Positions 1-42,003 of a stretch of DNA of 64,000 nucleotides are shown here, piece after piece. The DNA lies in assembly GCF_009914755.1 (NCBI RefSeq), contig NC_060926.1; one strand, given 5' to 3'. The stretch comes from the human T2T-CHM13v2.0 reference genome, Homo sapiens. How positions within the stretch are numbered: the first letter of the stretch is position 1; each line of letters starts with the position of its first letter. The notes under the pieces were generated by a model. The model had not been told where the DNA came from. It worked only from the letters and a program-made list of their open reading frames with translations, and did not search any database. Both the position numbers and the translations under genes were made by a program.

Positions 1-3457
<3,457 letters not shown>

Positions 3458-39570: not shown

Positions 39571-39822
<252 letters not shown>

Positions 39823-39991
39823 TTGACCTTGAGTTGAGATGGATTTCTATTAAAGATATCTCTAGTTTAAAGATACTAGTCACCTGCCATAAGTCATGGA
39901 ATAGTTTTTATATTTACAGCTTTTATATTTAAAACTTGTAAGAGTTTTTTTAATGATTGAGGAAAAAGTCATTTAGAAAACTTCAGTTTTC

Positions 39992-40244
39992 GGCCAGCGC
40001 GTCGAGGGAGGGGCCAGCGACACATGGCCTAGTAACCGTCCGGCCGCGGCGCTGGCTTAAGCCATGGCTGAGGGTAGCTGGATTCCTCAGGCCCGGGCGC
40101 TCCTACAGCAGTGCCTGCACGCCCGGCTGCAAATTCGCCCAGCCGATGGGGACGTCGCGGCCCAGTGGGTGGAGGTCCAAAGAGGACTGGTGATCTACGT
40201 GTGCTTTTTCAAGGGAGCTGATAAAGAACTTCTTCCCAAAATGG
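39992..40244 (+). pseudogene. DTD2: Intronless 5' fragment of DTD2 (D-aminoacyl-tRNA deacylase 2) carried by an SVA
   Basis: gccATGg at 40064; [60 protein letters not shown] matches the recalled DTD2 N-terminus; lies inside the insertion TSDs. Confidence 0.88.
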
Positions 40245-41709
40245 CCGAAGCTGGACTGTACTGCTGCCATCTCTGGCTCACTGCAACCTCCCTGCCTGAT
40301 TCTCCTGCCTCAGCCTGCCGAGTGCCTGCGATTACAGGCGCGCGCCGCCACACCTGACTGGTTTTCGTATTTTTTTGGTGGAGACGGGGTTTCGCTGTGT
40401 TGGCCGGGCTGGTCTCCAGCTCCTAACCGCGAGTGATCCGCCAGCCTCGGCCTCCCGAGGTGCCGGGATTGCAGACGGAGTCTGGTTCACTTAGTGCTCA
40501 ATGGTGCCCAGGCTGGAGTGCAGTGGCGTGATCTCCGCTCGCTACAACCTCCACCTCCCAGCTGCCTGCCTTGGCCTCCCGAAGTGCCAAGAGTGCAGCC
40601 TCTGCCCGGCCGCCACCCCGTCTGGGAAGTGAGGAGCGTCTCTGCCTGGCTGCCCATTGTCTGGGACGTGAGCAGCCCCTCTGCCTGGCTGCCCAGTCTG
40701 GAAAGTGAGGAGCGTCTCTGCCCGGCCGCCATCCCATCTAGGAAGTGAGGAGCGCCTCTTCCCACCCGCCATCCCATCTAGGAAGTGAGGAGCTTCTCTG
40801 CCCGGCCGCCCATCGTCTGAGATGTGGGGAGCACCTCTGCCCGGCCGCGACCCCATTTGGGAGGTGAGGAGCAACTCTGCCCAGCCGCCCCGTCTGAGAA
40901 GTGAGGAGACCCTCCGCCTGGCAACCGCCCCGTCTGATAAGTAAGGAGCCCCTCTGCCCAGCAGCCGCCCCGTCTGAGAAGTGAGGAGCCCCTCTGCCCA
41001 GCAGCCACCCTGTCTGGGAAGTGAGGAGCGTCTCCGCCCGGCAGCCACCCAGTCCGGGAGGGAGGTGGGGGGGGTCAGTCCCCCGTCCGGCCAGCCGCCC
41101 CGTCCGGGAGGTGAGGGGCGCCTCTGCCCAGCTGCCCCTACTGGGAAGTGAGGAGCCCCTCTGCCCCGCCAGCCACCCCGTCCGGGAGGGAGGTGGGGGG
41201 GTCAGCCCCCCGCCCGGCCAGCCGCCCCGTCCGGGAGGGAGGTGGGGGGTCAGCCCCCCGCCCGGCTAGCCGCCCCGTCCGGGAGGCGAGGGGCGCCTCT
41301 GCCCGGCTGCCCCTACTGGGAAGTGAGGAGCCCCTCTGCCCGGCCAGCCGCCCCGTCCAGGAGGGAGGTGGGGGGGTCAGCCCCCCGCCCGGCCAGCCGC
41401 CCGGTCCGGGAGGGAGGTGGGGGGGTCAGCCCCCCGCCCGGCCAGCCGCCCCGTCCGGGAGGTTAGGGGCGCCTCTGCCCGGCCGCCCCTACTGGGAAGT
41501 GAGGAGCCCCTCTGCCCGGCCACCACCCCGTCTGGGAGGTGTACCCAACAGCTCATTGAGAGCGGGCGATGATGACAGTGGCGGCTTTGTGGAGTGGAGG
41601 TGGGGGGAAGGTGGGGAAAAGATTGAGAAATCGGATGGTTGCCGTGTCTGTGTAGAAAGAAGTAGACATGGGAGACTTTTCATTTTGTTCTGTACTAAGA
41701 AAAATTCTT
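40245..41709 (+). mobile_element. SVA retrotransposon (no CCCTCT hexamer; Alu-like part, GC-rich VNTR, 3'-truncated SINE-R)
   Basis: ccgaagctggactgtactgctgccatc start; gaagtgaggagcccctctgcccggc VNTR units; SINE-R ggaggtgtacccaacagctcattgag...tgtactaagaaaaattctt. Confidence 0.95.
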
Positions 41710-41739
41710 ACCCTAAAACTTAAAGTATAATAAAAAAAA
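41709..41739 (+). mobile_element. 3' tip of a primate L1 (L1PA-type) plus poly(A)
   Basis: taccctaaaacttaaagtataataaaaaaa matches the recalled L1PA 3' terminus. Confidence 0.8.
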
Positions 41740-41872
41740 AAAACTTCAGTTTTCTAAAAATTATATTTAAAATTGTAATCAAAATGTACCTAGTTTATAA
41801 ATGTTTATTTTGTACTTAATACCTGTAAAGTCTTAGTTTTCAGACATTAAGTGACTGTATCATGTTCGGTTT

Positions 41873-41878
41873 AATAAA
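41873..41878 (+). terminator. BBS5: Probable BBS5 polyadenylation signal AATAAA
   Basis: First AATAAA in unique AT-rich sequence downstream of the insertion. Confidence 0.6.
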
Positions 41879-42003
41879 GAATTTATGCAGCACCATTTAA
41901 CGTTTTGAAAGTATTATTTAAAAGAAAAAGACTATTCTTACGGAATAATCAAAATTCTGCTTTCTTAATTGTAAAAATCTGGTTTAAATATCCCATGGCT
42001 CCT

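What the first reader, a model, noticed from the sequence alone, without database searches (positions are those of the whole stretch)
39977..41754. Three-part DTD2-SVA-L1 retrocopy inserted in the BBS5 3' UTR
Seen: one insertion flanked by the TSD AAAACTTCAGTTTTC (39977-39991 and 41740-41754), 155 nt after the BBS5 stop. It contains a CpG-rich 5' UTR and 60 intronless codons of DTD2, then SVA sequence starting at ccgaagctgg with no CCCTCT hexamer, then VNTR, truncated SINE-R, an L1 3' tip and poly(A). From recalled consensus, SVA has ...GCCGAG just before CCGAAG, so the junction ATGG|CCGAAG fits splicing of a DTD2 exon donor to an SVA cryptic acceptor. Established: SVA exon trapping and 5' transduction (as in MAST2-SVA). 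Inference: a DTD2 transcript spliced into an SVA in or downstream of DTD2 and was retrotransposed here, shuffling exons into a ciliopathy gene mRNA. A source SVA at DTD2 should exist or have existed.
Basis: partly seen in the sequence, partly recalled or inferred. Interest (0 to 1): 0.9.

Follow-up and report, generated by a model that had tools for sequence, protein, structure and literature searches.

The report
DTD2-SVA spliced retrocopy in BBS5 3'UTR
A 1.75-kb piece of the human BBS5 3' untranslated region is a retrotransposed copy of an RNA in which the first two exons of DTD2 (chr14) were spliced into an SVA element that still sits 15 kb downstream of them: a clean, traceable example of a known exon-trapping mechanism, not a new one.

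Summary
Window 39992-41739 is one L1-type insertion, with a 15-nt target-site duplication (TSD) and a poly(A) tail, in the BBS5 3'UTR.

It contains, in order:
- one untemplated G;
- DTD2 exon 1 (39993-40174) and exon 2 (40175-40244), with the 3.9-kb intron 1 removed;
- an SVA with no hexamer, starting exactly after the SVA's conserved AG;
- VNTR, 168 nt of SINE-R, a 25-nt L1 3' tip and poly(A).

The predicted source exists. It is a full-length sense SVA at G000 C14:25634370-25635843, 15.1 kb downstream of the DTD2 exon-2 donor and about 9.9 kb past the DTD2 stop codon. It has AG at the junction position and carries the same truncated SINE-R/L1-tip end. That junction occurs only twice in the genome.

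So the L1 tip was inherited from the chr14 parent and was not added at BBS5. The chimeric RNA skipped DTD2's terminal exon.

The mechanism is the known MAST2/SVA_F1 type of exon trapping. This instance has one offspring and no subfamily. No paper in the searchable library holds both gene names. Kwon 2013 lists only a BBS5 3'UTR SVA-D, and I could not read Hancks 2009 or Damert 2009.

Not tested: ape orthologues, present-day transcripts, effect on BBS5.

Verdict: a new member of a known kind, of moderate interest.

The parts
39721..41895 (+). BBS5 last exon (exon 12). Stop codon TGA at 39820-39822. The 3'UTR is 2073 nt, of which 1763 nt are the insertion plus one TSD copy.
   Evidence: Hub annotation (NM_152384.3)
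39977..39991 (+). 5' copy of the target-site duplication, AAAACTTCAGTTTTC
39992..39992 (+). Untemplated G at the 5' end of the insertion (DTD2 has C at this position). Inferred to be a reverse-transcribed cap, which would mark a full-length copy of an RNA started at the DTD2 promoter.
   Evidence: cap-G interpretation from PMC4859970 (passage)
39993..40174 (+). DTD2 exon 1: 71 nt of 5'UTR and codons 1-37 (ATG at 40064). Two CpG-transition differences from the gene, at 40037 and 40079; the second turns Arg6 (CGG) into Trp (TGG).
40175..40244 (+). DTD2 exon 2: codons 38-60 plus 1 nt, identical to the gene, ending exactly at the exon-2 splice donor.
40245..40597 (+). SVA Alu-like domain. It begins immediately 3' of the SVA's conserved AG. 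The hexamer and the 100 nt upstream of the AG in the parent are absent.
40598..41541 (+). SVA VNTR. Unit order is collinear with the chr14 parent; the BBS5 copy has two extra blocks (82 and 49 alignment columns).
41542..41709 (+). First 168 nt of SINE-R, truncated. It shares 6 private variants with the chr14 parent against 28 other SVAs.
41710..41739 (+). L1 3' terminus (25 nt, containing AATAAA at 41729) and poly(A). The boundary with the TSD's own AAAA is ambiguous.
41740..41754 (+). 3' copy of the target-site duplication
41873..41878 (+). Native BBS5 AATAAA, 17 nt before the annotated mRNA end and downstream of the insertion
   Evidence: hub annotation

Best explanation
Step 1 (earlier, on chr14). 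An SVA RNA was integrated by the L1 machinery about 9.9 kb downstream of the DTD2 stop codon, in DTD2's orientation, inside the 3' end of an older L1. Its SINE-R was cut short after 168 nt and joined to the last 25 nt and poly(A) of an L1 RNA. The join most likely arose when the reverse transcriptase switched from an L1 RNA to the SVA RNA, or when the two RNAs were ligated.

Step 2. A transcript started at the DTD2 promoter and spliced exon 1 to exon 2. It did not use exon 3 or the gene's poly(A) site, and ran on. The exon-2 donor was spliced to the AG that follows the SVA hexamer's long pyrimidine tract. The RNA was polyadenylated at the AATAAA in the SVA's L1 tip.

Step 3. L1 ORF2p copied this capped chimeric RNA in full into a T-rich nick (TTTT/CT on the bottom strand) in the BBS5 3'UTR. 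This left an extra 5' G, a poly(A) tail and a 15-nt TSD.

Result. The insertion makes up 85% of the RefSeq BBS5 3'UTR.

Shown: the anatomy, the exon boundaries, the parent element and the parent-offspring link. Inferred: the order of RNA events, the cap-derived G, the template switch, and any effect on BBS5.
For: Retrotransposition hallmarks:
- Exact 15-nt TSD, poly(A) tail and intron loss.
- The DTD2 part matches the two chr14 exons at 250 of 252 positions, and 40244 is the exon-2 donor.

Parent element:
- Window 40244-41739 aligns end to end with C14:25635744-25634380 on DTD2's strand. The SVA's first base after the AG lies 15,120 nt past the exon-2 donor.
- That element has a hexamer, its own 12-nt TSD and AG at the junction position.
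- 14 of 15 other SVA copies have AG there.

Parent-offspring link:
- The 31-nt SINE-R/L1 junction, allowing up to 2 mismatches, occurs exactly twice in the 3.1-Gb genome: the BBS5 copy and the chr14 element. The reversed-pattern control gave 0.
- The two copies share 7 private variants against 16 and 28 other SVAs.
- Their VNTR unit order is collinear.
- Direction is fixed. Only the chr14 copy has the hexamer, and the exons come from the gene next to it.

Other support:
- Exon 3, which carries the stop codon, is absent from the copy.
- The L1 identity of the tip is shown.
- The mechanism is in print. PMC4859970 describes transcription initiating in an upstream exon, splicing into SVA and retrotransposition of the chimera, and also cap-derived 5' G (passages).
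Against: - The last base of exon 2 and the G of the SVA's AG are the same letter. The junction is therefore ambiguous by 1 nt, and taken alone it would also fit a 1-nt microhomology template switch.
- The parent SVA is not inside the coding part of DTD2. Read-through of roughly 10 kb past the terminal exon is required, and I could not check whether any annotated DTD2 isoform or 3'UTR reaches that far.
- No transcript evidence for the exon 2-SVA junction was available.
- Parent and copy differ more in the SVA parts (17 of 551 non-VNTR aligned positions; 34 of 812 in the VNTR) than in the DTD2 part (2 of 252). I attribute this to constraint and hypomethylation of the gene's own exons, which is an inference.
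- The copy lineage carries about twice as many changes as the parent lineage: 12 against 6 in the Alu-like and SINE-R parts. This is unexplained; reverse-transcriptase errors are one possibility.
- Only 40 of 1076 and 40 of 2312 candidate SVA loci were scored in the DNA searches. The exact-pattern search is the only genome-wide count.
Confidence: 0.9

Rival explanations
1. Template switching rather than splicing. During one TPRT event, ORF2p copied the chr14-derived SVA RNA up to the position after the AG, then jumped to a DTD2 RNA and copied it to the cap.
For: There is 1 nt of shared G at the junction. Template-switch SVA chimeras have been proposed in print: SVA-CKS1BP in PMC12593883 (figure-legend passage). 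The L1 tip of the parent itself probably arose this way.
Against: The switch would have to leave the SVA RNA exactly at its AG and land exactly on the last base of DTD2 exon 2. In mature DTD2 mRNA that base is an internal position joined to exon 3. It would also be a coincidence that the SVA RNA came from the one SVA lying 15 kb downstream of that very gene on the same strand.
Confidence: 0.04
2. The chr14 SVA is a sibling, not the parent. Both copies descend from a lost SVA/L1-tip element, and the DTD2 exons were joined by trans-splicing or by chance.
For: Parent and copy differ at about 3% of non-VNTR SVA positions. No grandparent with the junction exists in this genome. The nearest other SINE-R found (chr19, 93% over 91 nt) has a full SINE-R.
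Against: This needs an unrelated coincidence: one of only two carriers of the junction lying just downstream of, and in the same orientation as, the gene that donated the exons. Cis-splicing explains that directly.
Confidence: 0.03
3. Separate adjacent insertions: a partial DTD2 processed pseudogene and an SVA landed side by side in the BBS5 3'UTR.
For: None beyond the composite make-up.
Against: There is a single TSD around the whole insertion, and no internal poly(A) or TSD at 40244/40245. The junction falls on an exon donor and an SVA AG.
Confidence: 0.01

Closest known systems
Human SVA_F1 (MAST2 exon 1 spliced into SVA) and chimpanzee pt_SVA_D6 (STK40 exon 1)
   Same: A GC-rich first-exon sequence of a host gene is joined at its exon 3' end to an SVA acceptor AG. 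The hexamer is lost and the chimera is retrotransposed by L1 (PMC6139936 passages; PMC4859970 passages).
   Different: - Two exons are carried here, with an intron removed between them.
- The acceptor is at the 5' start of the Alu-like domain, so that domain is kept whole. In SVA_F1 the acceptor is at its 3' end.
- The source SVA lies beyond the gene's last coding exon.
- There is one offspring, not a subfamily of dozens.
3'-LINE-1 chimeras (U6/L1, Alu/L1, mRNA/L1)
   Same: The chr14 parent has a non-L1 RNA in sense orientation fused to an L1 3' end with poly(A), inside one TSD. These chimeras are explained in print by template switching or RNA ligation (PMC13174262 passages).
   Different: The partner is an internally truncated SVA, and the L1 part is only about 25 nt. 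I saw no SVA/L1 case in the passages read. The chimera then served as a source element.
SVA-CKS1BP chimeric source element
   Same: An SVA fused to another RNA that then produced further copies (PMC12593883 figure-legend passage).
   Different: There the foreign part is at the 3' side and is attributed to template switching. Here the gene part is 5' and is attributed to splicing.
BBS5 3'UTR SVA as listed by Kwon et al. 2013
   Same: It is the same element. PMC3794087 lists BBS5 (NM_152384) among genes with an SVA-D in the 3'UTR (abstract and results passages).
   Different: In the 3 passages of that paper naming BBS5, which are all I read, only the SVA and its subfamily are named. The DTD2 exons, the chr14 source and the L1 tip are not mentioned there.

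Membership tests
L1-mediated (TPRT) retrotransposition insertion | Target-site duplication flanking the whole insertion | tested here: met
   Exact 15-nt TSD at 39977-39991 and 41740-41754
L1-mediated (TPRT) retrotransposition insertion | 3' poly(A) tail abutting the TSD | tested here: met
   An A-run runs from 41732 into the TSD
L1-mediated (TPRT) retrotransposition insertion | Endonuclease-type target site (bottom-strand TTTT/AA) | tested here: inconclusive
   The site reads TTTT/CT on the bottom strand. The T-run matches the consensus; the two following bases do not (read).
L1-mediated (TPRT) retrotransposition insertion | Copy of a processed RNA (introns absent) | tested here: met
   The 3.9-kb DTD2 intron 1 and the 15.1 kb between exon 2 and the SVA are absent
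SVA exon-trapping chimera (SVA_F1 type) | The host part ends exactly at an exon's splice donor | tested here: met
   The gene continues with gtatgt after the base matching 40244
SVA exon-trapping chimera (SVA_F1 type) | The SVA part starts directly after an AG in the source or consensus SVA | tested here: met
   The parent has GCCAAG before the first retained base. 14 of 15 other SVAs have AG there and 1 of 15 has GG.
SVA exon-trapping chimera (SVA_F1 type) | A source SVA in sense orientation downstream of the donor exon, on the same transcription path | tested here: met
   C14:25634370-25635843, minus strand like DTD2, 15,120 nt past the donor. It lies past the last coding exon, so read-through is inferred.
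SVA exon-trapping chimera (SVA_F1 type) | Amplification of the chimera into a subfamily | tested here: not met
   The DTD2 part has no further copy (3 matches: itself plus the two exons). The SINE-R/L1 junction occurs twice only. This is a single insertion, not a subfamily.
Canonical full-length SVA | CCCTCT hexamer, Alu-like, VNTR, complete SINE-R, poly(A) | tested here: not met
   The BBS5 copy lacks the hexamer, and its SINE-R stops after 168 nt. The chr14 parent has the hexamer but the same truncated SINE-R.
DTD2 processed pseudogene | Copy of the mature mRNA including the last exon and its own poly(A) | tested here: not met
   Exon 3 (C14:25646041 to the stop at 25645716-25645718) is absent. 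Only residues 1-60 are present.
3'-LINE-1 chimera (applies to the chr14 parent) | Non-L1 RNA in sense orientation joined to an L1 3' end plus poly(A), within one TSD | tested here: met
   The parent's 12-nt TSD encloses the SVA, L1 tip and A18. The tip matches a bona fide L1 terminus at 23 of 25 positions.

The most novel reading that the evidence does not exclude
The chr14 SVA may still act as an alternative terminal exon for DTD2, giving a 97-aa DTD2(1-60)-SVA product. Its retrocopy may have rewired BBS5 in hominids in one or more of three ways. The 1.76-kb GC-rich module carries a CpG-island fragment from the DTD2 promoter-proximal region and an L1-derived AATAAA 144 nt before the native poly(A) signal. 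The module could change BBS5 polyadenylation. It could change BBS5 mRNA stability or translation. It could also drive transcripts of its own, as reported for the MAST2 part of SVA_F1.
Probability: 0.1. Interest if true: 0.6.

Novelty: new member of a known kind. Interest (0 to 1): 0.4.

Why it matters
- **A fully traceable case of SVA exon trapping.** The donor gene, both exon boundaries, the acceptor AG, the surviving parent element and a unique marker (the L1 tip) tying parent to offspring are all visible in one genome.
- **Splicing can reach an SVA beyond a gene's terminal exon.** It also shows that an SVA/L1-tip chimera can serve as a source element.
- **Variant interpretation in BBS5.** For this ciliopathy gene, 85% of the reference 3'UTR is young retrotransposed sequence that includes foreign coding exons. 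This matters when judging 3'UTR variants, mapping short reads (DTD2 reads can mis-map here) and designing probes.
- **No new mechanism.** No functional effect on BBS5 has been shown.

Tried and rejected
**Papers not held**
- Hancks 2009 and Damert 2009 were requested by DOI and by PMC id, and the Hancks & Kazazian 2010 review by PMC id. None is held. I cannot say whether their text or tables already list this element.

**Closed or empty sources**
- The 4 supplement files of PMC6139936 hold no BBS5, DTD2 or C14orf126.

**Literature searches**
- SVA+DTD2 gave 2 papers and SVA+C14orf126 gave 1. From their titles and abstract starts they look unrelated, and I did not open them.
- DTD2+BBS5 and C14orf126+BBS5 gave 0 papers.

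**Sequence work that led nowhere or was limited**
- Pfam scans of ORFs around two chr14 L1 ends gave nothing useful. The PDB sequence search identified L1 ORF2p instead.
- I searched for a grandparent SVA with the parent's private SINE-R variants. The best other copy (chr19) is 93% identical over 91 nt and has a normal SINE-R, so no grandparent was identified.
I used the 28 SVA loci already held, of which 15 contained the 5' end.
- My first translation was out of frame and was corrected.

- The ape empty-site test, because no ape genome is held.
- DTD2 TSS and 3'UTR annotation on chr14, which was not available.

Full report
**1. The observation**

The 15-nt repeat AAAACTTCAGTTTTC stands at 39977-39991 and 41740-41754, both copies exact. 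It is the only long direct repeat in 39800-41900 outside the VNTR. A third, 73% copy at 41827 looks like chance.

The repeat lies in the last exon of BBS5. The TGA is at 39820-39822, and the native AATAAA at 41873 is downstream of the insertion. Of the 2073-nt RefSeq 3'UTR, 1763 nt are the insertion plus one TSD copy, so the ancestral 3'UTR would be 310 nt (hub annotation).

Composition changes sharply at the edges of the insertion.

| Segment | G+C | CpG count |
|---|---|---|
| 5' flank, 492 nt | 33% | 1 |
| DTD2 part, 253 nt | 63% | 19 |
| VNTR | 74% | 67 |

**2. The DTD2 part**

The frame opening at 40064 gives 60 residues that align with residues 1-60 of mouse DTD2 (PDB 5xaq_A, E 1.1e-29). 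Pfam Tyr_Deacylase is seen only below its cut-off, at 21.2 against 25 bits.

In the window's own genome, 39992-40244 finds three places only: itself and two minus-strand segments of contig 14. Reading those segments shows the following.

- Exon 1 corresponds to 39993-40174 and is followed in the gene by gtaacg.
- Exon 2 corresponds to 40175-40244. It is preceded by ag and followed by gtatgt.

So an intron of about 3.9 kb is missing, and 40244 is exactly the exon-2 donor.

The copy differs from the gene at 2 of 252 positions, both CpG transitions (40037 and 40079). The second turns Arg6 into Trp.

The first inserted base, G at 39992, is not in the gene, which has C there. Extra 5' G on full-length SVA and L1 insertions is attributed to the cap in PMC4859970 (passage). 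I take it as a sign that the RNA began at the DTD2 start site, which is an inference.

The rest of DTD2 is one exon, C14:25646041 down to the stop at 25645716-25645718. It is absent from the copy.

**3. The SVA part and its acceptor**

From 40245 the sequence is the SVA Alu-like domain, then VNTR (40598-41541), then SINE-R.

I checked what precedes the first retained bases in other SVAs. Of the 28 SVA loci I held, 15 contained that region. The hexamers found were:

- GCCGAG in 12;
- GCCTAG in 1;
- GCCAAG in 1;
- GCTGGG in 1.

So 14 of 15 have AG at that point, behind the pyrimidine-rich hexamer region.

**4. The source element**

A local BLAST of the insertion against 120 kb around DTD2 aligned 40244-41739 end to end with C14:25635744-25634380, on DTD2's strand. 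Read out, this is a full-length SVA at about 25634370-25635843. It has these features:

- hexamer repeats;
- GCCAAG immediately before the first base retained in the BBS5 copy;
- VNTR;
- the same SINE-R break, the same L1 tip, and 18 A's;
- its own 12-nt TSD, GAAAAGTTCTGG.

It sits inside the 3' end of an older L1. The first retained base lies 15,120 nt past the exon-2 donor, and the element's 5' end is about 9.9 kb past the DTD2 stop.

The 31-nt SINE-R/L1 junction, with up to 2 mismatches allowed, occurs exactly twice in the 3.1-Gb genome: these two elements. The reversed control pattern gave 0.

Pairwise differences between the copy and the chr14 element:

| Region | Differences / aligned positions | Notes |
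|---|---|---|
| Alu-like | 10 / 352 | 6 at CpG |
| VNTR | 34 / 812 | plus blocks of 82 and 49 extra columns in the BBS5 copy |
| SINE-R plus tip | 7 / 199 | |

Against 16 other copies (Alu-like) and 28 other copies (SINE-R), the two share 7 private variants. Of their mutual differences in those two regions, 12 fall on the BBS5 lineage and 6 on the chr14 lineage.

Direction is unambiguous. Only the chr14 copy has the hexamer and the pre-AG sequence, and the exons belong to its neighbour gene.

**5. The L1 tip**

Bases 41710-41734 match, at 23 of 25 positions, the terminus of an element on chr14 (L004, position 825) that is followed by poly(A). The ORF 183 nt upstream of that terminus is L1 ORF2p residues 1075-1275 (8sxt_A, E 9.1e-135).

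Other SVAs align with 41620-41739 only up to about 41709 (38 of 40 scored places; 1076 candidates). A chr19 SVA continues past that point with ordinary SINE-R sequence. So SINE-R is truncated after 168 nt and joined to the L1 tip, with one shared T at the joint.

Because the parent's own TSD encloses the tip, the fusion predates or coincides with the chr14 insertion. It was not made at BBS5. It fits the class of 3'-LINE-1 chimeras, explained by template switching or RNA ligation (PMC13174262 passages). An alternative I cannot exclude is a tiny L1 insertion into a lost grandparent SVA, followed by polyadenylation at the L1 signal.

**6. Mechanism**

The best reading has three steps.

1. The chimeric SVA/L1-tip element lands downstream of DTD2.
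2. A DTD2-promoted RNA splices exon 1 to exon 2, skips exon 3 and its poly(A) site, splices into the SVA AG, and ends at the AATAAA in the L1 tip.
3. L1 ORF2p copies this RNA in full into a T-run nick in the BBS5 3'UTR.

This is the fourth class of SVA transcription described in PMC4859970. It is also the route that produced SVA_F1 (MAST2) and chimpanzee pt_SVA_D6 (STK40) (PMC6139936 passages).

The main rival is a template switch from SVA RNA to DTD2 RNA, which is allowed by a 1-nt ambiguity at the joint. It requires three coincidences: leaving at the AG, landing on the exon's last base, and the SVA RNA coming from the one SVA next to DTD2. I give it 0.04.

**7. Age**

The per-lineage change in the non-VNTR SVA parts plus the DTD2 part is about 13 of 773 positions on the BBS5 lineage and about 7 of 773 on the chr14 lineage. 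For CpG-rich sequence this suggests several million years. That fits the SVA-D label given by Kwon et al. (PMC3794087). This is a rough inference, since no ape genome could be consulted. The insertion is in both the RefSeq mRNA and this assembly.

**8. Known or new**

The presence of an SVA-D in the BBS5 3'UTR is in print (PMC3794087, abstract and passages).

- No paper in the searchable library holds DTD2 or C14orf126 together with BBS5 (0 and 0).
- The 3 papers holding SVA with either DTD2 name look unrelated from their titles and abstract starts, and I did not open them.
Prior listing cannot be excluded.

The mechanism is established. The instance has some uncommon details: two exons, an acceptor at the start of the Alu-like domain, a parent beyond the terminal exon, and a parent that is itself an SVA/L1 chimera. 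It produced no subfamily.

It is a new member of a known kind, of moderate interest.

Noticed in passing
L005:3494-4991 (= G000 C14:25634358-25635855, minus strand): The parent SVA sits inside the 3' end of an older L1 of the same orientation, about 85 nt before that L1's own A-run. Its 12-nt TSD is GAAAAGTTCTGG.
   Followed up: partly
window 40064-40357: The DTD2 start codon opens a 97-codon frame: DTD2 residues 1-60 (with Arg6 changed to Trp), then 37 residues read from the SVA Alu-like domain. It lies in the BBS5 3'UTR, and there is no evidence of translation.
   Followed up: no
window 41729-41734 and 41873-41878: There are two AATAAA signals 144 nt apart: one brought in with the L1 tip and the native BBS5 one. 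The inserted signal could give a slightly shorter BBS5 mRNA end.
   Followed up: no
window 40245-41709 vs the chr14 parent: The BBS5 copy carries about twice as many lineage-specific changes as the parent (12 against 6 in the Alu-like and SINE-R parts), and 131 more VNTR bases in two blocks. The cause is unknown. Reverse-transcription errors or different methylation are possibilities.
   Followed up: partly
L048 (G000 C19:41659280-41659570): A chr19 SVA shares some of the otherwise rare SINE-R variants of the parent/offspring pair, at 93% over 91 nt, but has a normal SINE-R. It may be a relative of the parent's lineage.
   Followed up: partly
window 1-3182: This is the longest masked repeat in the window according to the hub table. 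I did not examine it.
   Followed up: no
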